Of a stretch of DNA of 64,000 nt, positions 3,825 through 57,149 are shown in pieces. The translations under genes were made by a program, and so were the position numbers. The notes below the pieces were generated by a model. The model had not been told where the DNA came from, ran no database searches, and saw only the letters and a program-made list of their open reading frames with translations. The stretch comes from a virus (taxonomy: Duplodnaviria; Heunggongvirae; Uroviricota; Caudoviricetes): positions 216,485-280,484 of the IMG/VR virus record IMGVR_UViG_3300028886_000031; one strand, 5' to 3'. Numbering within the stretch: the first letter of the stretch is position 1; each line of letters opens with the position of its first letter.

Positions 3825-4946
3825 ATGACAAACTTAACAACTAGACAACAAGATTTTTTGGATGTCTATAAGAGATGTAATCTAGATATGTCAGCTGCAG
3901 CAAATCTTATGGGCGTCAGTAGAGATGTCTTTAGAATGACAATCTACAGGATAGAAAAAAAGATTGGAAAAATAGAAGATGTGGATAGAATAGATGATAC
4001 GAACATTGTAAAATCTACATCTACACTCTATGATAAAGATGGAAACATTCTCAATAAATGGGTTAAAGCAGATACAAGCAAAAATCAACTAAAACATCTA
4101 GCTAAGAAGTTTATAGCAGAATATTCTAAACAACTCCCAAAGTACAAACCAGGACCGTATGGTAAAAAATATATCTATGATAATAAGTTGATTGTTTATC
4201 CAATTGCCGACGTACATCTTGGAATGTTATCTTGGTTTAATGAAACCAAGAATAATTATAATACGAAAATTGCAGATGATACAGTTAGAAAAGCTGTATC
4301 TGAATTAATTTCTAATTCTCCATGCTGTCAAGAATGTTTGATATGTAATTTAGGTGACTTCTTACATGTAGATAATCTGTTTAACAAAACTCCAAAGAAT
4401 GAAAATATACTAGATGTGGACTCTAGATATGCTAAGATTCTTAACATAGCAATTAAGCTAATGAGATATATTATAGAATATTCTCTTGTTAGACACAGAC
4501 ACGTTACAATTGCTAACTGTATCGGAAACCATGATCCAATAGGGTCTCTATGGTTAAATTCAGCATTACAGAATATATATGAAAAAGAAAAAAGAATTAC
4601 CATATTAGATAACTCATCTCAGAGATTATATTACAGATATGGTAATAACTTATTTGGAATGTCCCATGGATCAGAGATAAAAGAAAAAGATTTACCTCTT
4701 TTAATGGCTACAGAAGAAAGAGAAGATTGGGGTAATACGGACTATCATTATTGGTTTCTTGGTCATTGGCATCACAATAAGTCTGTAGATATATGCGGTT
4801 GTAATGTAGAAGCATTTTCACCTATATGTGCCAAAGATGCTTATGCTGTATCAAAAGGTTATAATTCAAAGAGTAAAATACAATTCATAACATATGATAA
4901 AGATGATGGTGAAAAAGAAAGATATTCTATATATCTCAAATATTAA
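3825..4946 (+). CDS. HTH domain fused to calcineurin-like metallophosphoesterase
   Basis: The N-terminus is HTH-like (AANLMGVSRDVFRMTIYRIEKK). It is followed by the metallophosphoesterase motifs DVHLG, GDFLHVDN, GNHD and GHWHH. Confidence 0.6.
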   Translation: MTNLTTRQQDFLDVYKRCNLDMSAAANLMGVSRDVFRMTIYRIEKKIGKIEDVDRIDDTNIVKSTSTLYDKDGNILNKWVKADTSKNQLKHLAKKFIAEYSKQLPKYKPGPYGKKYIYDNKLIVYPIADVHLGMLSWFNETKNNYNTKIADDTVRKAVSELISNSPCCQECLICNLGDFLHVDNLFNKTPKNENILDVDSRYAKILNIAIKLMRYIIEYSLVRHRHVTIANCIGNHDPIGSLWLNSALQNIYEKEKRITILDNSSQRLYYRYGNNLFGMSHGSEIKEKDLPLLMATEEREDWGNTDYHYWFLGHWHHNKSVDICGCNVEAFSPICAKDAYAVSKGYNSKSKIQFITYDKDDGEKERYSIYLKY

Positions 4947-4978
4947 ATAAATTTAAAACAGATTTTAGAAGGTACAGC

Positions 4979-5710
4979 ATGAATCATTATAATTTTTTAG
5001 CTGAAAATGTCTTGAAAACAAAGACACATTGGTCAAAATCTAATCAAGTCAATGCTATTAATGAACTAGTATTAAAATATCCAACAGCAAAGCAATTTAA
5101 AAATGCTGTTATAAGAAATGGTGATAGAAAATCAATTGAATTAATCCAGAATCTTCCGGATAATGCATCTAGATCTGACTATGTTGATTTCTTACAATCA
5201 GCATTTACGAAATATTCAACTATTGGAAAAAATATACTTTCTGCAGCTGCCGGAGTTGGTATTGGTGCAGCGACAGCATATGCAGCAGGAAAAGCTGTAG
5301 ATGCTAGCACTTCGCCAAGAACAAATTCAACACAAGAAGCACCGACAACGACACAACCACCTACAACTCCTCCAGCAACACCTCCGGCTCCAAATAATCA
5401 AGCACTTATTGATCCAACAAGTTATACTGGACGTGCTTTAAGAGCAATGGGTGCAAAGACAAATAGTCTAGGTGGAATTGTTGGAAATAGAATGAATGCC
5501 ATCGGTTTAAATGGACAGAGACTTTCTAGTATGGCAAGTAGAGCAGCAGCTGATACAAGAGGAGAAATCTTTAGTCAACAAAGAAGAGGTATTCAGGCTC
5601 TTGGTGGCGCAGCTGGATTTGGATTGGGAACTGCTGGAGCTCACGGAATTCAATCTTGGAGGCAGAAGAAACTTCAAGATAGGATAGAAGCACTCAAAAA
5701 TGGATATTAA
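4979..5710 (+). CDS. hypothetical protein with a Gly/Ala-rich segment and a Pro/Thr-rich linker
   Basis: ORF track. It contains low-complexity AAGVGIGAATAYAAG and TTTQPPTTPPATPPAP, so it may be structural. Confidence 0.5.
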   Translation: MNHYNFLAENVLKTKTHWSKSNQVNAINELVLKYPTAKQFKNAVIRNGDRKSIELIQNLPDNASRSDYVDFLQSAFTKYSTIGKNILSAAAGVGIGAATAYAAGKAVDASTSPRTNSTQEAPTTTQPPTTPPATPPAPNNQALIDPTSYTGRALRAMGAKTNSLGGIVGNRMNAIGLNGQRLSSMASRAAADTRGEIFSQQRRGIQALGGAAGFGLGTAGAHGIQSWRQKKLQDRIEALKNGY

Positions 5711-22993: not shown

Positions 22994-23110
22994 ATGCTTT
23001 ATATATTATGTATAGTCTTATTATGTATTATCTTAATGATTGGTGCTGTTTTTTGTTTTTATAAATACATAGAATATTTGACATCTGACGAAAAAGATGA
23101 AGAAGAATAA
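22994..23110 (+). CDS. small single-TM peptide (38 aa, MLYILCIVLLCIILMIGAVFCFYKY...)
   Basis: TAAATG overlap with the upstream gene. The ORF is not in the track because of its size. Confidence 0.35.
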   Translation: MLYILCIVLLCIILMIGAVFCFYKYIEYLTSDEKDEEE

Positions 23111-23557
23111 ATTTTCTCTCGGTTTAAATGTTTAAGTTAGACTATATATATTATATCTCAATGATAGAGAACCCAAGTATTTCATCTTTTAGCACCGAAG
23201 ATGTGAAGGAAAAGACTTCGGAATAACCTTTCCATGATGAAATAGCAACGACTTGTTGAGTCCCTTCGTTGTTGCTGGGCTGTGTTTGAACTAGAACGTC
23301 CTTGAGACGTGTACGCTTATGGTTTAATTTACGATTACTTCACAACGTTGCATGGTAACGTTAGTCATCATAGGATTTTGTCGTAAAAACCAAAAAGACT
23401 TCAAATAGTAAAACATTCAGTTTTCAGTTGTCAAGGAACACAAATGTCTTAGCGTATGTAGTTCAGATGCAACCAATCTTGGGTTATTTTATTACATCCG
23501 ATAAGATGGCAGTCAAAAAAGAAATTTTCTTTGTGTCTACCAGAATAAATTTAAAAT

Positions 23558-23869
23558 GGCCTAGTGGCGAAATGGCATACGCAGCGGAGAATCTGAAAAA
23601 AGAAGAGTCCGCCTTAGTCAGAAATGATTAAGAAAAATGTGGTTGAATTCGGCTGAAGAGAGAAAACTCAGAGGGCGAGCCAAGCATGAGATGGATCTCA
23701 TGAAGGTGTAGAGACTACTGGAGGAATATTATTTCCTTAATTACCAGAATTAGCGACCACTACCTTAGCAAGTAATGTTGAAGGTAAAGAGATAGTCCAA
23801 TCCGAGAGGATGCTTAAAATCCGCCCGCCAGTTTTGGCGATGAGGGTTCGAGTCCCTCCTAGGCCACCA
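23558..23869 (+). ncRNA. tmRNA-like RNA with tRNA-like acceptor/T-arm and encoded CCA (candidate ssrA)
   Basis: 5' GGCCTAG (23558-23564) is exactly complementary to CTAGGCC (23859-23865). That is followed by the ACCA discriminator plus CCA and preceded by a T-arm GAGGG-TTCGAGT-CCCTC. The roughly 300 nt between them are GC-elevated and non-coding. A possible tag frame is ...AENLKKEESALVRND-stop, but it is atypical. Confidence 0.4.
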
Positions 23870-23892
23870 TTTTTTATGAAGGATGAACAATT

Positions 23893-24534
23893 ATGGAAGA
23901 TCGATTATGTGAATATGGTTGTAATCAAAAAGCAAAACATATTTTAAAAAATGGAAAATATTGTTGTTCAGAACATCATAATAAATGTCCAGCGATTAGG
24001 ATAAAAAATTCTAATGGAGTATTAAAAGCTTATAATGATGGAAGACTAAATGCAAAAGAGAATTATCAAAAATTATCCCGAGAAACGAAAGACAATATGG
24101 CTTGGAATAGAGGAAAATGTTTAATAAAACCAGAAGATTTAAAAGATAAAAAAGAAATATGTATAGATACAATAGAAAGAATGATTAAAAATAAACTTAT
24201 TGATCTAGAATATAAATGCTGTATATGTGGTAATATTGGAGAATGGAATGGAAAGCCATTGAAATTAGAAATTCATCATATAGATGGAAATCATCAAAAT
24301 AATTCCATAGAGAATTTAACTTATATATGTCCAAATTGCCATACACAAACAAGAACATATAGAAATAGAGGAACATCTAGATGGTTAAAAGAAGATCAAA
24401 TTAGAATTTTTTTAGATGAAAAATTACCTCTATATAATAATGATATAAATGAACTTCTGCAATATGAAAAAGTTAAAAATCAATCTTATGTATATAGAAA
24501 ATATATAGAATGGTATGTTAATAAAAAAGAATAA
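23893..24534 (+). CDS. HNH homing-type endonuclease with N-terminal Cys-rich zinc finger
   Basis: The HNH core is LEIHHIDGNHQNNSIENLTYICPNCHTQT. The N-terminus has CEYGC...CCSEHHNKC. It lies inside the tRNA island, as do the seg/HNH genes of T4-like phages. Confidence 0.65.
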   Translation: MEDRLCEYGCNQKAKHILKNGKYCCSEHHNKCPAIRIKNSNGVLKAYNDGRLNAKENYQKLSRETKDNMAWNRGKCLIKPEDLKDKKEICIDTIERMIKNKLIDLEYKCCICGNIGEWNGKPLKLEIHHIDGNHQNNSIENLTYICPNCHTQTRTYRNRGTSRWLKEDQIRIFLDEKLPLYNNDINELLQYEKVKNQSYVYRKYIEWYVNKKE

Positions 24535-24568
24535 AAATTAATATATCCGAATATATTATATAACATTT

Positions 24569-24957: not shown

Positions 24958-25905
24958 ATGAGACACTCATCGAAAACACAGAGTATATCTGATGTAATAG
25001 AACTATCGAAAGAATATTATAAAATAGATGGTATTTTCTTTGATGATACTTCTGAACAGAAATATTATAAATTACGTTTTATAGATTCCCGTATTGAAAA
25101 TCCCAAAGAAAATCAGTTCGATATAAATGTCTTTAGAGATTTCGATTATGAATCAAATAAAGAATATGCTCTTATTCATGATTTATTTATACATCATGTT
25201 CGACCATTAAAGTTTGATGTAGTAAAAGAATTTTTTAAAGATTTTACTGTAAAATATCAGGTTGTTACAAAGTGCTCAGGAGAAGAATTTAACAAATGCT
25301 ATAGCATAGAATATCCGGAAGAAGCTAAATACAAGTTAGAGAGAATATACCCGCCTCATATATATTTCTTAGCTGATACACATTTTCATCACGGCACGAG
25401 ACTTAAGAACACTCCATATAAAAGTATGCAAGAATATAATGATAAACTTATACAAAAAATTAACGCAGTTGTTCCTGAATATGCAATTCTCGTTCTTGTT
25501 GGAGATGTTTATGTTCCTAGTGATAGTAAAATGGGAAGACAGGAACAGATAGAAGAATTGACAAATATAAGAAAACAAATTAATTGTGAAAAAATCATAA
25601 TAATTCGAGGAAACCATGATAAATTAACATTAATGGATTATTTAAAATGTGGATTTTATGATGTTAGAGATAACTTGATATTACATGATTATGATGGCAG
25701 TAAAATCATCTCAACACACGAAGAAATACAAGATGATATCGGTGAATATAAAAATATTTTTGGACATATTCACAAACCAGAAATTGCTGTTACTGAATCA
25801 ACGTTTAATTGCTCTGCAAATGTTCTAGATGGAATTCCTAAATCCTTATTAGAAATTTTGGAAATGATGAAGGAAAAGACTAAAAATAAGTTTAAAAACA
25901 TATAA
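24958..25905 (+). CDS. calcineurin-like metallophosphoesterase (paralog 1) with N-terminal extra domain
   Basis: Motifs ADTHFHHG, VGDVY, RGNHDK and GHIHKP. Located between tRNA genes. Confidence 0.6.
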   Translation: MRHSSKTQSISDVIELSKEYYKIDGIFFDDTSEQKYYKLRFIDSRIENPKENQFDINVFRDFDYESNKEYALIHDLFIHHVRPLKFDVVKEFFKDFTVKYQVVTKCSGEEFNKCYSIEYPEEAKYKLERIYPPHIYFLADTHFHHGTRLKNTPYKSMQEYNDKLIQKINAVVPEYAILVLVGDVYVPSDSKMGRQEQIEELTNIRKQINCEKIIIIRGNHDKLTLMDYLKCGFYDVRDNLILHDYDGSKIISTHEEIQDDIGEYKNIFGHIHKPEIAVTESTFNCSANVLDGIPKSLLEILEMMKEKTKNKFKNI

Positions 25906-28574: not shown

Positions 28575-29201
28575 ATGAGTAAGTTCTTCATTACGAGTGA
28601 TGATCACTTCTACCATAAAAATATAATCAAATATTGTAACAGACCATGGAATCATGGTTTTGATAAAGATGGAAATATGATTATAACAGATGAAGATGTT
28701 CAAAACATGAACAATGAATTAATAGAGAACTGGAATTCTGTTGTAAATAAAGATGATATTGTTTTTAACCTTGGAGACTTTTGTTTCCTTGGCAAGAAAA
28801 CAAGTCCTAAATATTATTCTGAATACTCAAAGATATTCAATTGTTTAAATGGAGTAAAATATCTACTTATTGGAAATCACGATATTCCAGATGTACATGT
28901 TCATTATAAAATTGGATGGAAAGCAGTTTATGACAGACCAATTCTATGGTCAGGGAATATTATATTCTCACATAGACCTTTATGTACAAAATTAAAATGT
29001 GATGTTTCAAAACTTCCATTTATAAACATTTTTGGTCATATACATAACAACGGTTGTGATTTTGTTAATGGTGAATCTGTGGTAATTCCTTCCATTACAA
29101 AAAATACATTTTGTGCCTGTGTAGAATTAACGAACTATAAGCCGATTTTATTAAGTGAAATAGAAGATCGTATAAAAGAAAAGAGTCTGGAGAATGAATA
29201 G
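28575..29201 (+). CDS. calcineurin-like metallophosphoesterase (paralog 2)
   Basis: Motifs SDDHFYH, LGDFCF, IGNHD and GHIHNN. Confidence 0.6.
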   Translation: MSKFFITSDDHFYHKNIIKYCNRPWNHGFDKDGNMIITDEDVQNMNNELIENWNSVVNKDDIVFNLGDFCFLGKKTSPKYYSEYSKIFNCLNGVKYLLIGNHDIPDVHVHYKIGWKAVYDRPILWSGNIIFSHRPLCTKLKCDVSKLPFINIFGHIHNNGCDFVNGESVVIPSITKNTFCACVELTNYKPILLSEIEDRIKEKSLENE

Positions 29202-30018
29202 ATTCTTTACTGCAGATTGGCATCTATTCTCTGAGTCCGTTCGAAAACTTGGAGATAGACCTTATGCTGATATTTTTGCCATGAACAAGGCATTGATTAG
29301 AAATGCTAATCAAAGAACTCATTGTACATATAAAGAGGTATCTATTAAAGATGTTAATGGCAACAATGTTGCTATAAAAGTCCCGATTAAAGAAGATGTA
29401 ATATATCATTTAGGTGATTTCTATAAATATGATTCCCAATTCAAAGTAAAACCGGATGAGATTCTATCACATATAAACTCTAAAGTAATTCTCTTGGAAG
29501 GAAACCATGATAAGAACAATAGAGTAAAGATATTGGCAAATGCACTCACGATGGATATAGGTCCGTTTAAAAACGTTACATTATCACATTATCCATCTTA
29601 CTATGAAGAATCTAAGTTTCTTAATATTCCAAATCATTCTATACATATTTGTGGTCATGTCCACAAACTTTATAAATGGGCATACGATAAGTATAGGGAC
29701 GTTCTTAATATAAATGTTGGTGTAGATGTATGGAATTATAGAATAGTGTCAGAGCGGGAACTTATTACATATATCACATTTATACTTCAAAGATTAGATA
29801 ATAGTTTTATAACAGAGAATATAAATACAACATGTCATAAAGATTTTGTGCTAACAAACAACACTATAGAGCCAAAAAATCTGGAAAAGGAGAAAGATAA
29901 TGGCAAAAGAAAAGCAAGAAAATTCAAACTCGGAATCCAAGATAAACAACAAGAAATGTTGTCGCTGTATTTACAGGCACGAGAAAAAGTGCTCAAACAA
30001 GAAGTCACCGAACTTTGA
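29194..30018 (+). CDS. calcineurin-like metallophosphoesterase (paralog 3)
   Basis: Motifs TADWHLF, HLGDFYKYD, EGNHDKNN and GHVHK. It overlaps the upstream paralog by 8 nt. Confidence 0.6.
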   Translation: MNRFFTADWHLFSESVRKLGDRPYADIFAMNKALIRNANQRTHCTYKEVSIKDVNGNNVAIKVPIKEDVIYHLGDFYKYDSQFKVKPDEILSHINSKVILLEGNHDKNNRVKILANALTMDIGPFKNVTLSHYPSYYEESKFLNIPNHSIHICGHVHKLYKWAYDKYRDVLNINVGVDVWNYRIVSERELITYITFILQRLDNSFITENINTTCHKDFVLTNNTIEPKNLEKEKDNGKRKARKFKLGIQDKQQEMLSLYLQAREKVLKQEVTEL

Positions 30019-30446: not shown

Positions 30447-30662
30447 ATGGATAGTCGTGCAGCAACAGATTTTAAAATTAAATATGATTATCGTTTTGCA
30501 CCAAAAAGCAAAAACACATGTGATAAATGTAAGAGACATTATAAAGGTGTTGAGAGAATGATATGCAATGGCAGAACAGAATCAGAATGTTCTAGTACAG
30601 AATACCCTGTTACATTTACAACATACGAAAACCATACATGTAAGAGATTTAAAAGGCAGTAA
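30447..30662 (+). CDS. small Cys-rich protein (71 aa)
   Basis: CDKCKRHYKG...CNGRTESEC...HTCKRFK pattern. Confidence 0.45.
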   Translation: MDSRAATDFKIKYDYRFAPKSKNTCDKCKRHYKGVERMICNGRTESECSSTEYPVTFTTYENHTCKRFKRQ

Positions 30663-31309
30663 TGTTCAGGATACTTGGAAAAATCCCAAATAATTTCTAC
30701 TTAGCATGTTCCGGTGGAACGGACTCAATGGTGTTTTTGGATTTTCTCATGAAATATCCAAAAAATAAAATTACAATTTTACATTTTGATCATGGAACAC
30801 AATATTGTAAGGAAGCACATGAGTTCGTATATCGTTTCTGCATCGAACATAGATTATCTTTTGTAATACAATCTATATTACCTCAAGATAAAAAAGAGAA
30901 GAATGAATCATGGGAAGTTTACTGGAGAAGATGTAGATATAAATTCTTATCAGAATTTAAAGATAAACCGATCGTAATGTGTCATCAATTAAATGACTGC
31001 ATTGAAACTTGGATAATGACGTCTATGTCAGGTCATCCAAGACTGATACCTTATTATAATAGTAAATATAACATTATCAGACCGTTTCTGTGTGTTTCTA
31101 AATCACAGGTGGATGAATGGAGAAAACGACATAATGTGAAATGTGTGATTGATGGATCTAACTATGATCTCAGAGCAAAAAGAAATTATGTTCGACATGT
31201 CATGATGAAGAACATATATGAACTCAATCCTGGAATAGAGAAAACTATAAAAAGACTCATCACAAAACAATATAGTTTAGCTTTGGAGAATGAGTATGAC
31301 AATTCTTAA
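30662..31309 (+). CDS. PP-loop ATPase, tRNA(Ile)-lysidine synthetase (TilS) N-terminal-domain-like
   Basis: The SGGTDS PP-loop, HFDHG and CHQLNDCIETWIMTSMSGHP...IIRPFL parallel the TilS motifs SGGxDS, VDHGLR and HHxDDQAET...RPLL. It has no C-terminal Zn motif, so it is unlike QueC. Confidence 0.5.
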   Translation: MFRILGKIPNNFYLACSGGTDSMVFLDFLMKYPKNKITILHFDHGTQYCKEAHEFVYRFCIEHRLSFVIQSILPQDKKEKNESWEVYWRRCRYKFLSEFKDKPIVMCHQLNDCIETWIMTSMSGHPRLIPYYNSKYNIIRPFLCVSKSQVDEWRKRHNVKCVIDGSNYDLRAKRNYVRHVMMKNIYELNPGIEKTIKRLITKQYSLALENEYDNS

Positions 31310-32915: not shown

Positions 32916-32927
32916 TTAGTTCTTTAC

Positions 32928-33103
32928 CGCGGTGCTAGTGTAATTGGAAGCACGCTTCATATTCATTCTGTCTGAATCTGCAGATAACGGACAGTTTGGA
33001 AACACGAAGAGGAATGGGAGAGACGATAAGGATGTTCGAAAGAACGCCAGTCTCCAGCGCTTATGTACAAGGCGTTGAGGTTCGAATCCACCCACCGCGA
33101 CCA
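32928..33103 (+). ncRNA. tRNA-like RNA 1 (176 nt) with about 100-nt insertion between D-arm and T-arm, CCA encoded
   Basis: 5' CGCGGTG pairs with 3' CACCGCG, followed by A and CCA. It has a D-arm AGTG-TAATTGGAA-GCAC and a TTCGAAT T-loop. The T-stem is imperfect. Confidence 0.35.
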
Positions 33104-33115
33104 TTGTTCTTTTTA

Positions 33116-33270
33116 CGGGAGACTGGTGTAATGGTAGCACGTCAGGAAGGTACACCCTGAAGGAGTCCGATTGTCGAATTACCCAAACGGATATTCGATA
33201 ATAACAGTTCGTCCGGAAGTTCTGTTATACGGAAGTACTAATCGAGGTTCGAATCCTCATCTCCTGACCA
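33116..33270 (+). ncRNA. tRNA-like RNA 2 (155 nt) with about 80-nt insertion after the anticodon arm, CCA encoded
   Basis: Acceptor CGGGAGA/TCTCCTG (one G-U pair), then A and CCA. D-arm GGTG-TAATGGTA-GCAC. There is a stem TCAGG/CCTGA with a 9-nt loop. The insert has internal hairpins (TCGAAT/ATTCGA, AACAG/CTGTT). T-arm GAGG-TTCGAAT-CCTC. Confidence 0.4.
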
Positions 33271-33273
33271 TAT

Positions 33274-33388
33274 TGCGAGGTAGTGTAACGGTAGCACATC
33301 TCTTAAGGTCATAACCTGCTGCTGGTTGGCAGTGATATATGACACGACATAGAGATAGAGACAGTTCAATTCTGTGCCCTCGCAACCA
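33274..33388 (+). ncRNA. tRNA-like RNA 3 (115 nt) with about 45-nt insertion in the anticodon region, CCA encoded
   Basis: Acceptor TGCGAGG/CCTCGCA, then A and CCA. D-arm GTGT-AACGGTA-GCAC, near-identical to RNA 2. TCTCT pairs with AGAGA across the insert. T-loop TTCAATT. Confidence 0.4.
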
Positions 33389-33435
33389 CAAAAAGTCTAT
33401 GACTTTTTTTTCAAAGTTTTTAGAAAGGAGTAATT

Positions 33436-33747: not shown

Positions 33748-34355
33748 GCATTGGTTCATCTGATACAAGAAAATTTGGAAAATGGTTTCAAATTAGATGG
33801 GCTGAAAAACTTGGAGATCCAGAGAATCCATATTTAATAAGATGGACGTTAATTTTATTTGGATACTCTATTAGATTACATCATTGGTTGAGGTCAGATG
33901 ATAGAAGATATTTTCATGATCATAGTTCAAATCTTTTAAGCATTGTATTAAAAGGATGGTACATTAACGTAACTCCAAAAGACCCATCAAAAGTACCAGA
34001 CTATAAATATTCGGATAGAAAATATTGGCATACTTTTAGATCTTTAACTGGTGATTTGTATACATCTTTTTATCTTGACGATGATAATAGGGAATTACAT
34101 TTTGTAGAAGGTATATTTAATTCCTTCAAGAATTTTCTTAACATGTTTAAATACTCTATCTGGTATTCTAAAGCCACAGATAGACATTATCTATCTATTC
34201 CAAAAAGTGGAGCATGGACTCTATTGTTTGAGGGTAGAAAATATCATAAATGGGGTTTTTATGTTCCAAAAAATAAACAATCAGAAGTTAGAAAATTAAG
34301 ACCTCTAAGATATTTTCATAAATTCGGAATAATCCAGACAAAAGATTATCAATGA
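33744..34355 (+). CDS. hypothetical protein (203 aa)
   Basis: ORF track. ATGA overlap with the neighbouring gene. Confidence 0.5.
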   Translation: MSIGSSDTRKFGKWFQIRWAEKLGDPENPYLIRWTLILFGYSIRLHHWLRSDDRRYFHDHSSNLLSIVLKGWYINVTPKDPSKVPDYKYSDRKYWHTFRSLTGDLYTSFYLDDDNRELHFVEGIFNSFKNFLNMFKYSIWYSKATDRHYLSIPKSGAWTLLFEGRKYHKWGFYVPKNKQSEVRKLRPLRYFHKFGIIQTKDYQ

Positions 34356-34828
34356 AAGTTTTATTTTTGGATATAGATGGAGTCATTAATAGATTTAAGT
34401 ATTATGATGATGGAAAACTCGACAATGAGTTAGATGAAGATTGTATTAAAAGATTAAGCAACATTATAGAATCTACAAATTGTAAGATTGTTATAAGTTC
34501 TACATGGAAGGCTTCTCCTCATCTAATGGATATTCTAGAAGACGATTTATTTCCACACTTACCCGCTGGCTGTGTCGCTGGATGTACAAAGACACATATT
34601 CCACAAGTGCAACGAGAGACGGAAATTAGGGAGTATTTAGCCGAGCATAAAGACGAGATAGAGAATTATGTTATAGTGGATGATTATGATTTTGAATTAA
34701 AATCCTTCTTAAATGGCGGTCATTGTGTTATCACAGACGCGTTAGATGGACTAACAAAAGAGGATATGGATGAATGTATCAAAATTCTAAACAAAGAAAG
34801 GAATCAAAATGACAGAAGTAAAAAGTGA
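34352..34828 (+). CDS. HAD-superfamily phosphatase (T4 Pnkp phosphatase-domain-like)
   Basis: HAD motif I FLDIDGV at residues 5-11, motif II VISSTW and motif IV YVIVDDYD. It is a stand-alone 158-aa protein. Confidence 0.6.
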   Translation: MKVLFLDIDGVINRFKYYDDGKLDNELDEDCIKRLSNIIESTNCKIVISSTWKASPHLMDILEDDLFPHLPAGCVAGCTKTHIPQVQRETEIREYLAEHKDEIENYVIVDDYDFELKSFLNGGHCVITDALDGLTKEDMDECIKILNKERNQNDRSKK

Positions 34829-35264
34829 ATTATATAACAAGATCTATGAAGATCTTAAAAATTCGATGAAAGAAAAGAATATTCAAAAAAGAGATGTTCT
34901 TAAAATAATTATCTCCGGAGTTAAAAATGAAACAATTAACAACGGGAAAGATATCACAGATGACGCATGTAAATCCGTTCTAAGAAAACTTGTAAAACAA
35001 CATGAAGATTCTATACAGCAGTTCACAGATGCAAATAGAATGGATCTTGTTTCAAAGGAAGCCTTGGAACTTACATATTTGAGGTTTTACCTTCCCAAGA
35101 TGATGTCTGACGAAGAAATGAAATCAGAAATTAATAATATTATTAAGGTAAACAATATACCTTTAGCTAGGCAAAATATGGGTCAGATCATGAAAATTGT
35201 CAAGCAGTATGATAATATAGATATGAAAAAGGCTTCAGAGTATATTAAGTCAATCATGAACTGA
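34809..35264 (+). CDS. GatB/YqeY-domain protein (tRNA-binding helical domain)
   Basis: LKNSMKEKNIQKRDVLKIIISGVKN...LRKLVKQHEDSIQQF...DLVSKEALELTYLRFYLPKMMSDEEM follows the YqeY/GatB C-terminal-domain pattern (K..D..RL..LR.L...IKN...YLP..LSEEE). Confidence 0.5.
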   Translation: MTEVKSELYNKIYEDLKNSMKEKNIQKRDVLKIIISGVKNETINNGKDITDDACKSVLRKLVKQHEDSIQQFTDANRMDLVSKEALELTYLRFYLPKMMSDEEMKSEINNIIKVNNIPLARQNMGQIMKIVKQYDNIDMKKASEYIKSIMN

Positions 35265-54695: not shown

Positions 54696-55655
54696 ATGGA
54701 AAACAACAAAGAAAAGATTGCCGTGATAGTCGGCAGATTCCAAGTAGCTGAACTTACTCAAGGTCACTTGGATTTATTTAGAAAAGTTATAGATGATGAC
54801 TATGGAAGTATACTTCTTGTCCTAGGTTTATCACCTACAAAATGTACACAAAGAAATCCATTAGATTTCGAATCTCGTAGATTAATGTTCGAGGAAGAAT
54901 TTCCTGGGAAACTTACTATACAATATCTAAGAGATGAAGCTAGTGATTCTGTATGGTCTGTTAATTTAGATCGTATAATAGATGATATACGCGGAAATAG
55001 AGATGTTGTTCTTATAGGAAGTAGAGATTGTTTCTATGATTGCTATGATGGATGTTATAAAAATAATTTTATAGAATATGTTCCTAAAGTATATACAAGT
55101 GGAAGTGAACAGAGAAAATCACTTTCAAGACAGATTAAATCCAATAAGTATTGGAGAGCTGGTTGTATTTATGCCACAATGAACCAGTATCCATCAGTAT
55201 ATGCTACAGTAGATTGTGCTATATTTAACGATATGTCTCTAGATAAAATTTATTTAGCTAGAAAGGAAAATGAATATTCATATAGATTTGTAGGTGGATT
55301 TAGTTCTCCCACGGATTCTAGTTTTGAAGCAGCAGCTAGAAGAGAGGCAGCAGAGGAAACAAAACTAGAGACTACAATCATTCAATATATTGGAAGTCGT
55401 AAAATAGATGATTGGCGTTATAGATCAGAGACTAATAAAATTATTACCAATTTCTATGCTATGGTAAAGAATTGGGGTAGAGCACAACCTAGTGATGATA
55501 TTAAGGAATTATATCTCGTAGATTTTAATACATTGAGTGAGAATGATATTATGCCAGAGCATAGAGAGTTATTTAATATGCTCTGCAATTGGAGAACCGC
55601 ATATATACTTAAAAATCCAAGTATAAAAGATGCAGTTATTAAACAACTCGATTAA
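54696..55655 (+). CDS. natV: bifunctional NMN adenylyltransferase / Nudix hydrolase (NadM-Nudix, NatV-type)
   Basis: N-terminal IAVIVGRFQVAELTQGH is the archaeal-type NMNAT motif. The C-terminal Nudix box is GGFSSPTDSSFEAAARREAAEETKLE. Confidence 0.7.
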   Translation: MENNKEKIAVIVGRFQVAELTQGHLDLFRKVIDDDYGSILLVLGLSPTKCTQRNPLDFESRRLMFEEEFPGKLTIQYLRDEASDSVWSVNLDRIIDDIRGNRDVVLIGSRDCFYDCYDGCYKNNFIEYVPKVYTSGSEQRKSLSRQIKSNKYWRAGCIYATMNQYPSVYATVDCAIFNDMSLDKIYLARKENEYSYRFVGGFSSPTDSSFEAAARREAAEETKLETTIIQYIGSRKIDDWRYRSETNKIITNFYAMVKNWGRAQPSDDIKELYLVDFNTLSENDIMPEHRELFNMLCNWRTAYILKNPSIKDAVIKQLD

Positions 55656-55700
55656 GTATCTTGTTAAGGTTAATTCGTTACAAAGACAAGGAGAAAAACA

Positions 55701-57149
55701 ATGGAAAATGAATTCAATATTATGTTAGCCAGTGATAGCTATAAGTTCGGTCACTGGAAGGCGTACATGCCAGATACAGAATATGTATATTCTTACTTAG
55801 AAGCACGTAAAGGTGCCAAGTTTAATAAAACATTATGGTTTGGACTTCAATCAATTATTCTAAAATATCTTAGTGGAACAGTTGTAACAGATCAGAAAAT
55901 TAGAGAAGCTAAAAGTTATATTGATTTACATCTTGGTAAAGGTGTTTTTAATGAAGATGGTTGGAGATACGTATTAAACAACTATAACGGTCGCTTACCA
56001 ATTCGTATAAATGCAGTAGAAGAAGGTAAACTTGTAGATGTTGGAAATGTTTTGATGACTGTAGAAAATACAGATCCAAATGTTCCATGGCTTACAAATT
56101 ATCTAGAAACTATATTAATGCAGGTTTGGTATCCTACAACTGTTGCAACACAAGATTGGGAAACAAAACAATTGTTGAAATATTATCTTCAACGTACTGG
56201 ATGTTCTGAAAAAGGACTTCCATTCATGTTGCATGGTTTTGGTATGAGAGCAGCAACTTCTTACGAAAGTTGTGCTCTTGCTGATGCTGCACACTTAATT
56301 AACTTTAAAGGTACAGATACAGTTCCAGCATTAAAATTTATATGCGAATATTATGGAAAAACTTTAACATGTAGAAATATTCAAGAAATACAAGAGAATC
56401 CAAGTATTGATTTTCCCGGATATAGTGTTTTTGCTACAGAACACAGCATTATGACTTCTAGAGGTGAAGCTGGTGAATGGGATGTAGTAGAAAACATATT
56501 TAAGGCATGTCCATCTGGCATATGCAGCATTGTTATTGATAGTTATGATTATAGAAGATTTATCAATACATGTGGTCAAAGATTTTACGAAACAATTATG
56601 AATAGGGATGGCAAAACCGTATTTAGACCGGACTCCGGCGATCCCATTTCTACTACATTAGACGTATTGGAATTGCTAGATAGTCATTTTGGATCCACAA
56701 AAAATGCTGCTGGATTTAAAGTTTTAAATCCAAAAATTGGCGTTTTGTGGGGTGATGGAATAGATTACAATGGTGTTCGTGATATTCTCTTTGCAATGTT
56801 TAATGCTGGATGGGCAGCAGAAAACATTGTATTTGGCATGGGTGGTCACATGGTTCAATCCGGATTAACAAGAGATACAATGCGTTTTGCATTTAAGTGT
56901 TCAGCACAATACTATAAAGGTGAATGGCATGATGTTTGGAAACATCCAATAGATATTACTAAAGCATCTAAGCGTGGTCGTTTAGCATTATTACATGTTA
57001 AAGGACAAGATGGAAATATGTTCTATAAAACCATTAGGGATTTTGAATTAAAGAATCCAAATGATAATCAGTTAAGATGTATATTTGAAAACGGATATTT
57101 ACGTGAGCGTGTATCATTTGATGATGTAAAGATAAATTCTACATTATAG
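55701..57149 (+). CDS. nadV: nicotinamide phosphoribosyltransferase (NAMPT)
   Basis: N-terminus MLASDSYKFGHWKAY and internal GFGMRAATSYESCALADAAHLINFKGTDT are NAMPT family signatures. Length is 482 aa. Confidence 0.75.
   Translation: MENEFNIMLASDSYKFGHWKAYMPDTEYVYSYLEARKGAKFNKTLWFGLQSIILKYLSGTVVTDQKIREAKSYIDLHLGKGVFNEDGWRYVLNNYNGRLPIRINAVEEGKLVDVGNVLMTVENTDPNVPWLTNYLETILMQVWYPTTVATQDWETKQLLKYYLQRTGCSEKGLPFMLHGFGMRAATSYESCALADAAHLINFKGTDTVPALKFICEYYGKTLTCRNIQEIQENPSIDFPGYSVFATEHSIMTSRGEAGEWDVVENIFKACPSGICSIVIDSYDYRRFINTCGQRFYETIMNRDGKTVFRPDSGDPISTTLDVLELLDSHFGSTKNAAGFKVLNPKIGVLWGDGIDYNGVRDILFAMFNAGWAAENIVFGMGGHMVQSGLTRDTMRFAFKCSAQYYKGEWHDVWKHPIDITKASKRGRLALLHVKGQDGNMFYKTIRDFELKNPNDNQLRCIFENGYLRERVSFDDVKINSTL

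What the first reader, a model, noticed from the sequence alone, without database searches (positions are those of the whole stretch)
23111..23869. 312-nt structured RNA with tRNA-like 5'/3' ends and CCA: candidate phage tmRNA, preceded by a GC-elevated 450-nt non-coding leader
GGCCTAG at 23558 is perfectly complementary to CTAGGCC just before the ACCA at 23866. That 3' strand is preceded by a textbook T-arm, GAGGG-TTCGAGT-CCCTC. The layout is that of a tmRNA tRNA-like domain: acceptor plus T-arm with no anticodon arm, enclosing about 290 nt.

One internal frame reads ...AENLKKEESALVRND-stop. This is atypical for a degradation tag, because it does not end in ALAA. The start of that frame is also only about 23 nt from the 5' end, so the call is tentative.

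Alternatives are a tRNA with a large insertion, or another tRNA-like ncRNA in the same spirit as the three expanded tRNA-like genes.

The upstream 23111-23557 region has no ORF and is visibly more GC-rich than the flanks. It includes a hairpin AGCAACGA...TCGTTGTTGCT and a degenerate copy of the T-loop (GTTGAGTCCC).
Basis: partly seen in the sequence, partly recalled or inferred. Interest (0 to 1): 0.6.

Follow-up and report, generated by a model that had tools for sequence, protein, structure and literature searches.

The report
Phage tRNA-Leu gene split by intron
The "312-nt tRNA-like RNA" is not a tmRNA but a jumbo-phage tRNA-Leu(UAA) gene interrupted by a 224-nt group I intron at an unusual site (between nucleotides 31 and 32, with A instead of the near-universal U before the splice site), and it sits in a mobile cassette with a neighbouring HNH homing endonuclease gene.

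Summary
The sequence features reported are real, but the tmRNA reading is wrong. Window 23558-23869 (+) is a class II tRNA-Leu(UAA) gene. It comprises a 31-nt 5' exon, a 224-nt group I intron (23589-23812) and a 57-nt 3' exon with encoded CCA.

Sister strains of the same phage (L270, L272) carry an intron-less 88-nt tRNA-Leu(UAA) at the same locus and no HNH gene. The exons joined at A31|C32 align with that allele without gaps.

The intron belongs to a family of 56 unique tRNA-Leu genes from phage contigs, metagenomes and Burkholderiales chromosomes. In a 41-sequence alignment, 92% of cells pair and 59 of 80 pairs show compensatory changes. All members share three features:
- The insertion site is 31/32.
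- A(-1) pairs with U of the guide sequence, instead of the usual U·G wobble.
- There is an extra P7.1 hairpin and a class-specific G·G mismatch in P4.

A free-standing HNH gene (23893-24534) travels with the intron in a cassette (23491-24548), which suggests collaborative homing. Self-splicing is inferred, not shown.

The upstream "leader" (23111-23490) is phage backbone. It is non-coding and conserved in patches, and its function is unresolved.

The parts
23558..23588 (+). tRNA-Leu(UAA) 5' exon, 31 nt. It holds the acceptor 5' strand (23558-23564), the D arm (23567-23582) and the anticodon-stem 5' strand GCGGA (23584-23588). It ends in A31.
   Evidence: ARAGORN -i. Aligns without gaps to the intron-less allele L270:3830-3917.
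23589..23812 (+). Group I intron, 224 nt, with no ORF. Helices and elements:
- P2 at 23613-23632
- P3 at 23639-23643 with 23756-23760
- P4 at 23648-23653 with 23674-23679
- P5 at 23658-23669
- P6 at 23685-23702
- P7 at 23711-23717 with 23793-23798
- P7.1 at 23718-23747
- P8 at 23761-23786
- P9 at 23801-23810
- omega-G at 23812
   Evidence: RF00028 at 38.2 bits, E = 5.5e-8. Covariation on 41 homologues gives 92.4% of cells paired and 59 of 80 pairs with compensatory change.
23605..23612 (+). Internal guide sequence GAGUCCGC. UCCGC pairs with the 5' exon GCGGA (P1, with A31-U at the splice site). GAG pairs with CUU of the 3' exon (P10).
   Evidence::
- A31-U, G30-C and G29-C hold in 41 of 41 sequences.
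- Position 28 covaries: GC 31, CG 9, AU 1.
- P10 G-C32 holds in 40 of 41, and A-U33 in 33 of 41.

a G lies 5' of UCC in 55 of 56 sequences.
23652..23675 (+). G·G mismatch inside P4 (G at 23652 opposite G at 23675). It is specific to this intron class.
   Evidence: the P4 3' strand is NGC/NGT-GAG in 53 of the 54 class members where it could be read. It is NCC-GAG in about 97 of 100 other introns with the same core.
23718..23747 (+). Extra hairpin between P7 and P3' (P7.1-like), with a conserved UUAAUNA internal loop.
   Evidence: helices 13 and 14: 100% paired, and 6 of 9 pairs have compensatory change. The hairpin is absent from the canonical phage tRNA-Leu introns.
23813..23869 (+). tRNA-Leu(UAA) 3' exon. 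Elements:
- whole anticodon loop CUUAAAA (23813-23819), with anticodon UAA at 23815-23817
- anticodon-stem 3' strand (23820-23824)
- long variable arm (23825-23841)
- T arm (23842-23858)
- acceptor 3' strand (23859-23865)
- discriminator A (23866)
- encoded CCA (23867-23869)
23893..24534 (+). Free-standing HNH homing-endonuclease gene (213 aa), starting 24 nt after the tRNA.
   Evidence: - Pfam HNH_3 scores 26.9 bits against a cut-off of 24.8.
- PHROG HNH endonuclease families match, best E = 1.5e-23.
- The gene is absent together with the intron in L270 and L272.
- Homologues lie next to intron-bearing tRNA genes in many loci.
- It is the only copy of this family in the 64-kb window.
23491..24548 (+). 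Mobile cassette: 67-nt upstream segment, intron-bearing tRNA-Leu and HNH gene. It replaces an intron-less tRNA-Leu plus about 150 nt in sister strains.
   Evidence: Homology to L270 and L272 breaks at 23490 and resumes at 24549. The same cassette occurs in the unrelated contig L231 at 75% nucleotide identity, starting at window 23489.
23111..23490 (+). Non-coding, GC-elevated backbone region (the "leader"). Conserved blocks lie at about 23111-23200, 23275-23345 and 23446-23490. Variable, indel-rich patches lie between them. A long-range helix is predicted between about 23171-23181 and 23479-23490.
   Evidence: - Aligns to L270 with indels that are not multiples of three.
- Identity to L270 falls from 0.97 to 0.65 along the region, against about 0.95 in the coding flanks.
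- RNAalifold predicts 93 pairs, none broken, 2 compensatory.
- The folding z-score is only -1.8.
- No Rfam match.
22994..23110 (+). Small ORF of 38 aa (MLYILCIVLLCIILMIGAVFCFYKYIEYLTSDEKDEEE), hydrophobic at the N-terminus. It bounds the leader on the left.
   Evidence: Translation. Called as a gene in L270 and L273. About 98% conserved.

Best explanation
Window 23558-23869 is a phage-encoded class II tRNA-Leu(UAA) gene whose anticodon arm is interrupted by a 224-nt ORF-less group I intron. The intron lies between A31, the last base of the anticodon-stem 5' strand, and C32, the first base of the anticodon loop.

**Proposed mechanism**
1. The gene is transcribed with the surrounding + strand tRNA/protein gene cluster.
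2. The intron folds into the P3-P9 catalytic core.
3. Its guide sequence GAG-UCCGC pairs with the 5' exon GCGGA to form P1.
4. Guanosine attacks after A31.
5. The same guide then aligns C32-U33 of the 3' exon (P10).
6. The 3'-OH of A31 attacks after the terminal G (23812). This gives an 88-nt tRNA-Leu with a normal CUUAAAA loop.

Unlike nearly all group I introns, the splice-site pair is A(-1)-U, not U(-1)·G.

The intron and the adjacent free-standing HNH endonuclease gene (23893-24534) form one mobile cassette. Most likely the HNH enzyme cuts intron-less tRNA-Leu genes of related phages. Repair then copies the intron, the flanking exon sequence and the HNH gene into them (collaborative homing). 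The intron protects its own genome from cleavage.

**Shown here**
- the gene structure
- the unique exon junction
- the covarying RNA structure
- family-wide conservation
- joint presence or absence of intron and HNH between strains

**Inferred, not shown**
- actual self-splicing
- the chemistry at an A-U splice site
- the HNH target

The upstream 23111-23490 region is separate phage backbone. It is probably a structured, fast-evolving non-coding spacer or leader of the tRNA-cluster transcript, but confidence in that is low.
For: **In the window**
- ARAGORN -i calls tRNA-Leu(taa) at 23558-23869 with a 224-nt intron at 31-32.
- RF00028 matches 23569-23814 at E = 5.5e-8.
- The junction cannot be shifted: the intron starts with G and the 3' exon with C, while the 5' exon ends with A and the intron ends with G.

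**Intron-less allele**
- Strains L270 and L272, about 95% identical in the coding flanks, carry an intron-less 88-nt tRNA-Leu(taa) at the same place.
- That allele scores 60 bits against the Rfam tRNA model.
- The window exons joined at A31|C32 are also 88 nt and align with it without a gap in the anticodon arm.

**Family**
- 56 unique tRNA-Leu(taa) genes share the same junction.
- On 41 of them, 92.4% of cells pair and 59 of 80 pairs have compensatory change.
- The covariation score is 0.574, against 0.07-0.11 when partners are slid. None of 500 shuffles reaches it.
- The P1 pair at exon position 28 covaries: GC 31, CG 9, AU 1.

**Indirect evidence that the class splices in vivo**
- In Curvibacter isolates the intron-bearing gene sits in a chromosomal ntrB-ntrC / tRNA-Gly(GCC) x2-4 / tRNA-Leu context.

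**Mobility**
- The HNH gene is lost together with the intron.
- The cassette is shared with L231.
- HNH homologues lie within about 500 nt of intron-bearing tRNA genes in at least 15 loci.
- Only one such HNH gene occurs in the 64-kb window.
- Collaborative homing has a described precedent in cyanophage psbA (PMC6083498).
Against: - No RNA data: splicing is not demonstrated.
- The A(-1)-U pair breaks the U(-1)·G rule. That rule holds in 98.5% of mapped bacterial tRNA introns (bioRxiv 10.1101/2020.01.27.920355). Mutating the U·G pair to C-G is reported there to inactivate the Tetrahymena intron.
- The Rfam score of 38.2 bits is below the gathering score of 50. The hit is lost with default filters on the whole window.
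- The phage copy need not be functional, because the host presumably has its own tRNA-Leu.
- The HNH target is unknown.
- The strong exon divergence between alleles (76% in the 3' exon) could reflect ordinary recombination with another phage rather than endonuclease-driven homing.
Confidence: 0.85

Rival explanations
1. Phage tmRNA. An alanine-charged tRNA-like domain made of acceptor and T arm encloses an mRNA-like tag ORF and pseudoknots.
For: Acceptor stem, T arm and CCA are present, and a short internal frame ends in a stop. Phage contigs can carry tmRNA genes: L043 has a permuted beta-type tmRNA 300 nt from its intron-bearing tRNA-Leu.
Against: - ARAGORN -m finds no tmRNA.
- No tmRNA family matches at E <= 10.
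- The third acceptor pair is C3-G70, not G3·U70.
- A D arm, an anticodon stem, a 7-nt loop with UAA and a long variable arm are all present.
- The interior is a covarying group I core.
- The sister strain has a plain tRNA-Leu at this locus.
Confidence: 0.01
2. A dead gene. The tRNA-Leu was inactivated by an intron that can no longer splice, for example because it lacks the U·G pair. It is carried passively with the selfish HNH gene.
For: - A(-1)-U replaces U·G.
- The Rfam score is below the gathering score.
- Phage tRNA genes are dispensable.
- Intron-less strains exist.
Against: - All core helices remain intact, and compensatory changes occur across 56 unique and widely diverged copies.
- The exon-guide pairing co-evolves.
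- The same class sits in a chromosomal tRNA operon of Curvibacter isolates.
- The intron-bearing allele is 100% identical on contigs from at least four samples.
Confidence: 0.08
3. The intron is removed, but not by the canonical route at A31|C32. It might need a protein cofactor, use another 5' cleavage site that gives an 8-nt anticodon loop, or rely on phage RNA-repair or ligase enzymes.
For: - In 18 of 56 members the first intron base is U, which could form U·G with the conserved guide G.
- The window encodes RNA-repair-type domains nearby: HAD_SAK_2 and YqeY.
- Three other oddly expanded tRNA-like genes lie 9 kb downstream.
Against: - The first intron base is A or G in 38 of 56 members, so a U·G there is not conserved.
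- An 8-nt loop with a variable extra base is implausible for the chromosomal Curvibacter gene.
- P1 and P10 align the ligated exons contiguously on the guide.
- The intron-less allele has the standard 7-nt loop.
Confidence: 0.06
4. For the leader only: 23111-23490 is an independent structured non-coding RNA gene rather than a spacer or leader.
For: - GC is elevated in an AT-rich genome.
- The ends are conserved, and no predicted pair is broken between the two strains: 93 pairs, 2 compensatory, 7 one-sided.
- A long-range inverted repeat joins 23278-23293 with 23459-23474.
- In L270 the region abuts the tRNA 5' end directly.
Against: - The z-score is only -1.8, and 2 of 100 shuffles fold as well.
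- There is no Rfam match.
- Only two sequences are available, and RNAalifold fits its structure to them.
- The middle evolves faster than coding DNA and has many indels.
- No homologue was found in L231, in IMG/VR or in ATPase-relative contigs.
Confidence: 0.3

Closest known systems
[quoted passage not shown]
   Same: - Same host gene and anticodon.
- ORF-less intron of 200-250 nt in the anticodon arm.
- Very similar core, including the AAUUCGG...GAGCCAAGC...GAAGGUGUAGAGACUA motifs.
- The guide sequence lines up on the same mature nucleotides: U with A31, G with C32, A with U33.
- The canonical type also occurs in IMG/VR phage contigs.
   Different: - Insertion is 3 nt upstream, at 31/32 instead of 34/35, so the whole anticodon loop lies in the 3' exon.
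- The splice-site pair is A(-1)-U, not U(-1)·G.
- P1 uses the anticodon-stem strand (positions 28-31).
- There is an extra P7.1-like hairpin.
- P4 carries a G·G mismatch.
Group IA introns of phage protein-coding genes (T4 td/nrdB/nrdD type) and related introns in IMG/VR contigs
   Same: - A peripheral hairpin lies between P7 and P3'.
- The motif GTAGAGACTACTRGAG is shared with about 50 introns in viral contigs that are not in tRNA-Leu.
- Both are associated with HNH-type endonucleases.
   Different: - The host gene here is a tRNA, not an ORF.
- No endonuclease ORF lies inside the intron.
- P4 has G·G where those introns have G-C.
- The 2014 review PMC3984707 states that all phage introns known at that time were in protein-coding genes.
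Non-classical bacterial tRNA group I intron settings: the 35/36 IA introns of Patescibacteria (PMC13011429), and 'Leu.3Cg' and other settings (bioRxiv 10.1101/2020.01.27.920355)
   Same: - All are tRNA anticodon-arm introns outside the four classical sites.
- All are missed or mis-called by standard annotation.
- Leu.3Cg is a natural class without U at -1.
   Different: - The Patescibacteria introns have U at -1, and splicing was shown for them.
- Leu.3Cg keeps the 34/35 site and a pyrimidine at -1.
- No text available to me describes a 31/32 site or a purine at -1. The relevant figures and tables could not be read.
Collaborative homing of a free-standing endonuclease with an ORF-less intron (F-CphI and the psbA intron of cyanophage S-PM2; T4 mobE/I-TevIII)
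   Same: - An ORF-less intron lies next to a free-standing endonuclease gene.
- Both are present or absent together between related phages.
- The flanking exon sequence is replaced (PMC6083498, PMC2790892).
   Different: - The target gene is a tRNA.
- The endonuclease is of the HNH family.
- Cleavage specificity is untested here.
tmRNA
   Same: Acceptor stem, T arm and CCA end enclose a few hundred nucleotides.
   Different: - No match to a tmRNA covariance model.
- No G3·U70 pair.
- A full D arm and anticodon arm are present.
- The interior is a ribozyme core, not a tag ORF with pseudoknots.

Membership tests
tmRNA | Recognised by tmRNA detectors or covariance models | tested here: not met
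   ARAGORN -m finds 0 genes. No tmRNA family appears among Rfam matches at E <= 10 in 23000-24000.
tmRNA | G3·U70 pair in the acceptor stem (alanine identity) | tested here: not met
   The pairs are G1-C, G2-C and C3-G.
tmRNA | tRNA-like domain lacking an anticodon stem-loop | tested here: not met
   The anticodon stem GCGGA/UCCGC and the loop CUUAAAA are present once the intron is removed.
tmRNA | Tag reading frame with a resume codon after PK1, ending in a hydrophobic degradation signal | tested here: not met
   The only frame (23581-23631) ends in ...VRND and overlaps the covarying helices P1 and P2.
tRNA-Leu (class II tRNA) | Cloverleaf with a 7-nt anticodon loop, U33 and anticodon UAA after intron removal | tested here: met
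   ARAGORN drawing. The 88-nt product aligns with the intron-less tRNA-Leu(taa) of L270, which scores 60.3 bits on RF00005.
tRNA-Leu (class II tRNA) | Long variable arm and discriminator A73 | tested here: met
   The variable arm is at 23825-23841 and its stem covaries (helices 18-19). A lies at 23866.
tRNA-Leu (class II tRNA) | Aminoacylation with leucine and use in translation | not testable with these tools
   Needs biochemistry.
Group I intron | Conserved P3-P9 core fold, including the P3/P7 pseudoknot | tested here: met
   In one search, P3, P4, P6, P7 and P7.1 are 98-100% paired and P8 is 82% paired. All but the invariant P7 show compensatory change. P9 is too variable in length for the alignment to test (about 40% paired).
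Group I intron | Match to the Rfam model RF00028 at the gathering score | tested here: inconclusive
   The window scores 38.2 bits against a gathering score of 50, E = 5.5e-8. Family members L123 (63 bits) and L043 (59.6 bits) pass. The Curvibacter copies score 47 bits.
Group I intron | Terminal guanosine (omega-G) before the 3' splice site | tested here: met
   G at 23812. In the set found without constraining this base, 9 of 9 sequences have G.
Group I intron | U(-1)·G wobble pair at the 5' splice site in P1 | tested here: not met
   The -1 base is A31, paired with U of the guide, in 41 of 41 sequences and in all 56 unique genes. None of the 8 possible anticodon-loop registers gives both U(-1) and omega-G in the window. 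This feature is typical rather than absolute: C(-1) exceptions are described in bioRxiv 10.1101/2020.01.27.920355 and PMC11915505.
Group I intron | Guide sequence pairing with both exons (P1 and P10) | tested here: met
   GAGUCCGC (23605-23612) is complementary to the ligated GCGGA|CUU.
Group I intron | Guanosine-dependent self-splicing | not testable with these tools
   Needs an in vitro splicing assay.
Subgroup IC3 (classical bacterial tRNA introns) | No peripheral element between P7 and P3'; insertion at 33/34, 34/35 or 36/37 | tested here: not met
   A covarying hairpin lies at 23718-23747. Insertion is at 31/32.
HNH homing endonuclease (free-standing) | HNH catalytic domain | tested here: met
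   PF13392 scores 26.9 bits against a cut-off of 24.8. phrog_10822 matches at E = 1.5e-23.
HNH homing endonuclease (free-standing) | Optional gene, present or absent between otherwise collinear genomes | tested here: met
   Present in L269, L271 and L273. Absent in L270 and L272.
HNH homing endonuclease (free-standing) | Cleaves the allele that lacks it (the intron-less tRNA-Leu) | not testable with these tools
   Needs an enzyme assay.

The most novel reading that the evidence does not exclude
This is a natural, widespread class of group I ribozymes that splices accurately with a Watson-Crick A(-1)-U pair in place of the near-universal U(-1)·G wobble at the 5' splice site. The purine is on the exon side. 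The class uses a previously undescribed insertion site at the stem/loop boundary of tRNA-Leu (31/32). A class-specific G·G mismatch in P4 may be the compensating change in the substrate-docking region. The class spreads among phage tRNA genes, long thought to be intron-free, by collaborating with a free-standing HNH endonuclease.
Probability: 0.5. Interest if true: 0.75.

Novelty: new variant of a known kind. Interest (0 to 1): 0.6.

Why it matters
**Annotation.** Default ARAGORN and Rfam at gathering score both miss this gene. Phage tRNA repertoires, and therefore codon-usage or anti-defence arguments built on them, are probably under-counted. At least 30 IMG/VR contigs in one scan carry intron-split tRNA genes.

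**Ribozyme mechanism.** The family is a natural exception to the U·G splice-site rule. It offers 56 sequence variants and a correlated core substitution. Together these make the question "what does the wobble pair really do?" testable with a small, easily transcribed RNA.

**Mobile DNA.** The two-allele polymorphism within one jumbo-phage population is a clean natural example of an intron plus free-standing endonuclease cassette replacing a tRNA gene.

If splicing fails in vitro, the finding reduces to a decaying selfish insertion and is of modest interest.

Tried and rejected
**Searches that found nothing useful**
- An exact-match scan of IMG/VR with the 5' exon (GGCCTAGTGGCGAAATGG) gave 0 hits.
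- A scan for relatives of the AAA ATPase in IMG/VR gave none.
- An IMG/VR scan with a conserved leader block (CCTTGAGACGTGTACGC) gave 0 hits.
- A homologue search with the 116-aa upstream ORF returned only the protein itself.
- Contigs carrying ATPase relatives of 44-61% identity (L277-L281) have neither the leader nor tRNA genes, so they gave no comparative power for the leader.
- Phage GenBank records share only the intron core, in crAss-like phages cr128_1 and cr6_1. The best protein matches are about 36% identical, so the phage is novel.
- Rfam at E <= 10 finds nothing credible in the leader on either strand.
- A whole-window permissive Rfam run lost even the intron hit to its filters.
- One call exceeded the query length limit.

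**Pattern hits that were chance.** Nine of the 12 genome-contig hits, including Methanolobus, Bathyarchaeia, Lachnospiraceae and Bacillota, are coincidental matches in coding DNA and not introns. So are several metagenome hits.

**Readings considered and rejected**
- A shifted P1 register (guide U·G30 with G·A31) fails for the 9 sequences that have C28.
- A 5' splice site one base downstream with U·G fits only 18 of 56 sequences and would give an 8-nt loop.
- The leader's T-loop-like motif is not conserved.
- RNase P RNA or a two-piece tmRNA for the leader has no model match.

**Literature limits**
- The stored supplementary tables of PMC13011429 are cut short. I could not check whether a 31/32 tRNA-Leu intron is listed there.
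- Table 1 of the tFind preprint is an image.
Full report
**1. The observation**

- GGCCTAG (23558-23564) pairs perfectly with CTAGGCC (23859-23865).
- A-CCA follows at 23866-23869.
- The T arm GAGGG-TTCGAGT-CCCTC lies at 23842-23858.
- The frame AAENLKKEESALVRND-stop lies at 23581-23631.
- An ORF-free upstream stretch has GC of 0.35-0.40. The flanks are 0.21-0.28 and the whole window is 0.286.

One description is wrong. In fact the 5' part continues with a D arm and the strand GCGGA (23584-23588). The 3' part begins with a complete anticodon loop CTTAAAA (23813-23819), the complementary strand TCCGC, and a long variable arm.

**2. What it is**

Default ARAGORN and Rfam at gathering thresholds report nothing here. 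ARAGORN in tmRNA mode also finds nothing in the window.

When introns are allowed, ARAGORN calls tRNA-Leu(taa) at exactly 23558-23869. It places a 224-nt intron between positions 31 and 32, and the spliced product is an 88-nt class II cloverleaf.

A permissive Rfam scan of 23000-24000 gives one credible match. This is the group I intron model RF00028 over 23569-23814, at 38.2 bits against a gathering score of 50, E = 5.5e-8. No tmRNA family appears even at E <= 10.

The acceptor stem has C3-G70 rather than G3·U70. The tmRNA reading is therefore rejected.

**3. The intron-less allele**

I looked up the upstream 116-aa ORF by exact sequence. This returned contigs of the same phage from several samples, one of them 321,653 bp long, so this is a jumbo phage.
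- L269, L271 and L273 are identical to the window.
- L270 and L272 are about 95% identical in the coding flanks. At the same position they carry an ordinary, uninterrupted 88-nt tRNA-Leu(taa), and they have no HNH gene.

Homology to the window stops at 23490 and resumes at 24549. The window's exons joined at A31|C32 are also 88 nt. They align with the intron-less gene without a gap in the anticodon arm...ACGGACTTAAAATCCGT... against ...GCGGA|CTTAAAATCCGC....

The junction cannot be slid. The intron begins with G and the 3' exon with C, while the 5' exon ends with A and the intron ends with G.

**4. A family, with covariation**

Scans of IMG/VR with core motifs showed that many viral contigs carry intron-split tRNA genes. 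The tRNA-Leu(UAA) genes fall into two kinds:
- A canonical kind, ...GGACUU|intron|AAAAUCC, at 34/35.
- A second kind, identical in layout to the window, ...GGA|intron-G|CUUAAAAUCC.

A pattern specific to the second kind found further copies in metagenomes, viral contigs and species-representative genomes. After chance matches in coding DNA were removed, 56 unique genes remain. All are tRNA-Leu(taa) and all have a 5' exon ending in ...GGA.

The cellular members are Burkholderiales, plus one goat-colon MAG.

In two Curvibacter isolates the gene lies in an ntrB-ntrC / tRNA-Gly(GCC) repeats / tRNA-Leu context on contigs of 0.7-0.9 Mb. This looks like a normal chromosomal tRNA operon. It argues that the intron is removed accurately in vivo. 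That is an inference, because I could not check for a second tRNA-Leu(UAA) gene.

I laid a hand-built group I plus cloverleaf structure on a 41-sequence alignment (A1). The results:
- 92.4% of cells form standard pairs.
- 59 of 80 pairs show compensatory change.
- The covariation score is 0.574, against 0.07-0.11 when partners are slid by 1-3 columns. None of 500 shuffles reaches it.
- P7 is invariant.
- P2, P3, P4, P6, P8, the acceptor, the T stem and an extra hairpin between P7 and P3' (window 23718-23747) all covary.

**5. How it most likely works, and what is odd**

The guide sequence GAG-UCCGC (23605-23612) is complementary to the ligated exons GCGGA|CUU. Across the family:
- U pairs with A31, C with G30 and C with G29 in 41 of 41 sequences.
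- The next pair covaries with exon position 28: GC 31, CG 9, AU 1.
- The G just 5' of UCC pairs with C32 of the 3' exon in 40 of 41 sequences.
- The preceding A pairs with U33 in 33 of 41.

P1 and P10 therefore align the two exons contiguously, as in any group I intron, and the intron ends in G.

The pair at the 5' splice site, however, is A(-1)-U rather than U(-1)·G.
- The first intron base is A, U or G (21, 18 and 17 of 56) and never C. A conserved wobble one base downstream is therefore excluded.
- A shifted register fails for the sequences that have C28.

The literature I could read treats U(-1)·G as the rule. It holds in 98.5% of 5,292 mapped bacterial tRNA introns. The only sizeable exception there has C at -1 (bioRxiv 10.1101/2020.01.27.920355). 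A further 15 tmRNA introns have C(-1) paired with A (PMC11915505).

One core feature correlates strictly with the odd splice site. The P4 3' strand reads NGC/NGT-GAG in 53 of the 54 family members where it could be read. It reads NCC-GAG in about 97 of 100 other introns with the same core. This creates a conserved G·G mismatch, at window 23652 opposite 23675. Whether this is an adaptation of the substrate-docking region is speculation.

Self-splicing itself is inferred and has not been shown.

**6. Mobility**

The ORF 24 nt downstream (23893-24534) is an HNH endonuclease:
- HNH_3 scores above the Pfam cut-off.
- It matches PHROG HNH families.

It is the only member of its family in the 64-kb window. 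It is absent together with the intron in L270 and L272.

The whole block 23491-24548 comprises 67 nt of upstream sequence, the split tRNA and the HNH gene. It recurs at 75% nucleotide identity in an unrelated short contig, L231, whose upstream gene is different. The HNH protein there is 73% identical.

Homologues of this HNH lie within about 500 nt of intron-bearing tRNA genes in many other loci, both of this class and of the canonical class.

In the window the exons themselves differ from the intron-less allele (76% identity in the 3' exon). This is what co-conversion during homing would produce.

The pattern matches "collaborative homing" of an ORF-less intron and a free-standing endonuclease, as described for cyanophage psbA (PMC6083498). 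The endonuclease target here is untested.

**7. The upstream "leader"**

Bases 23491-23557 belong to the cassette. Bases 23111-23490 are backbone.
- The backbone part is present in L270, where it abuts the tRNA directly.
- Its indels are not multiples of three, so it is non-coding.
- Blocks at both ends and in the middle are 97-100% conserved. Two patches have diverged far more than the neighbouring genes.
- RNAalifold on the two strains predicts a closed structure. The end helix joins about 23171-23181 with 23479-23490. None of 93 pairs is broken, 2 are compensatory and 7 have one-sided changes.

This evidence is weak:
- Two sequences cannot establish a structure.
- The folding z-score is only -1.8.
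- Rfam has no match.
- No homologue was found elsewhere.
- The T-loop-like motif is not conserved.

My best guess is a structured spacer or leader of the tRNA-cluster transcript. An independent ncRNA is a live alternative.

**8. Comparison with what is known**

[quoted passage not shown] It has the same gene, the same guide register and a similar core.

The window's intron differs in four ways:
- the insertion site (31/32)
- the splice-site pair
- the P7.1-like hairpin
- the P4 mismatch

By its peripheral hairpin and core motif it resembles introns of phage protein-coding genes.

A 2014 review states that all phage introns then known lay in protein genes, despite the many phage tRNA genes (PMC3984707). 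My literature searches found no later report of phage tRNA introns or of a 31/32 site. However, key figures and tables of the two most relevant papers could not be read. Prior listing of such an intron therefore cannot be excluded.

I classify it as a new variant of a known kind.

**9. Verdict**

The object is real and the tmRNA interpretation is wrong. It is a group I intron-split tRNA-Leu in a homing cassette. Interest is moderate to high because of the non-canonical splice-site pair and the phage tRNA context. It is tempered by the absence of any splicing data.

Noticed in passing
window 32921-33105, 33116-33270, 33276-33390 (+): Three tandem tRNA-like genes have acceptor stem, D arm, T arm and CCA, but carry 40-110 extra nucleotides in the anticodon/variable region. 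The inserts are too short for group I introns. ARAGORN forces the middle one into tRNA-Asn with a 57-nt intron. They lie next to RNA-repair-type ORFs (HAD_SAK_2 at 34352-34828, YqeY at 34809-35264).
   Followed up: partly
L203 (Ga0247611_10002699), reverse strand, about 4566-5220: A single tRNA-Leu(UAA) gene appears to carry two group I introns. One of about 320 nt lies in the D loop (GGCGGAACGGT|...CCTG|AGACGC). The other is the 31/32 intron described here.
   Followed up: partly
L043:204-564 (-): An IMG/VR phage contig encodes a permuted beta-proteobacterial-type tmRNA (RF01850 at 144 bits, RF04321 at 140 bits). It lies about 300 nt from its intron-bearing tRNA-Leu.
   Followed up: no
L154, L167, L171 (IMG/VR contigs): The same intron core follows ...GGGGTTCG, as if inserted in the T loop of a tRNA- or tmRNA-like gene on phage contigs.
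   Followed up: no
IMG/VR loci L014, L051, L054, L056, L062, L067, L076, L094, L096, L101, L107, L109, L119, L120: ARAGORN -i calls group I-split tRNA genes of other isotypes (Tyr, Lys, Phe, Ser, Thr, Met, Gln) on viral contigs. Phage tRNA introns therefore seem common. The isotype calls were not verified.
   Followed up: no
L093:2048-2133 (+): A RAGATH-27-like RNA match (59.5 bits against a gathering score of 76.1, E = 1.3e-5) lies about 350 nt upstream of an intron-bearing tRNA-Leu on a 158-kb viral contig.
   Followed up: no
window 30662-31309, 34352-35264, 54696-57149: The tRNA-rich region also encodes several metabolic or RNA-related proteins:
- a PP-loop (TilS-like) ATPase
- an RNA-repair HAD domain
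- a YqeY-like protein
- a NUDIX/cytidylyltransferase
- nicotinamide phosphoribosyltransferase
- three paralogous metallophosphoesterases (24958-25905, 28575-29201, 29194-30018)
   Followed up: no
window 22994-23110 (+): An unannotated-looking 38-aa ORF has a hydrophobic N-terminus and an acidic tail. It is conserved in the sister strain and was called as a gene there.
   Followed up: partly
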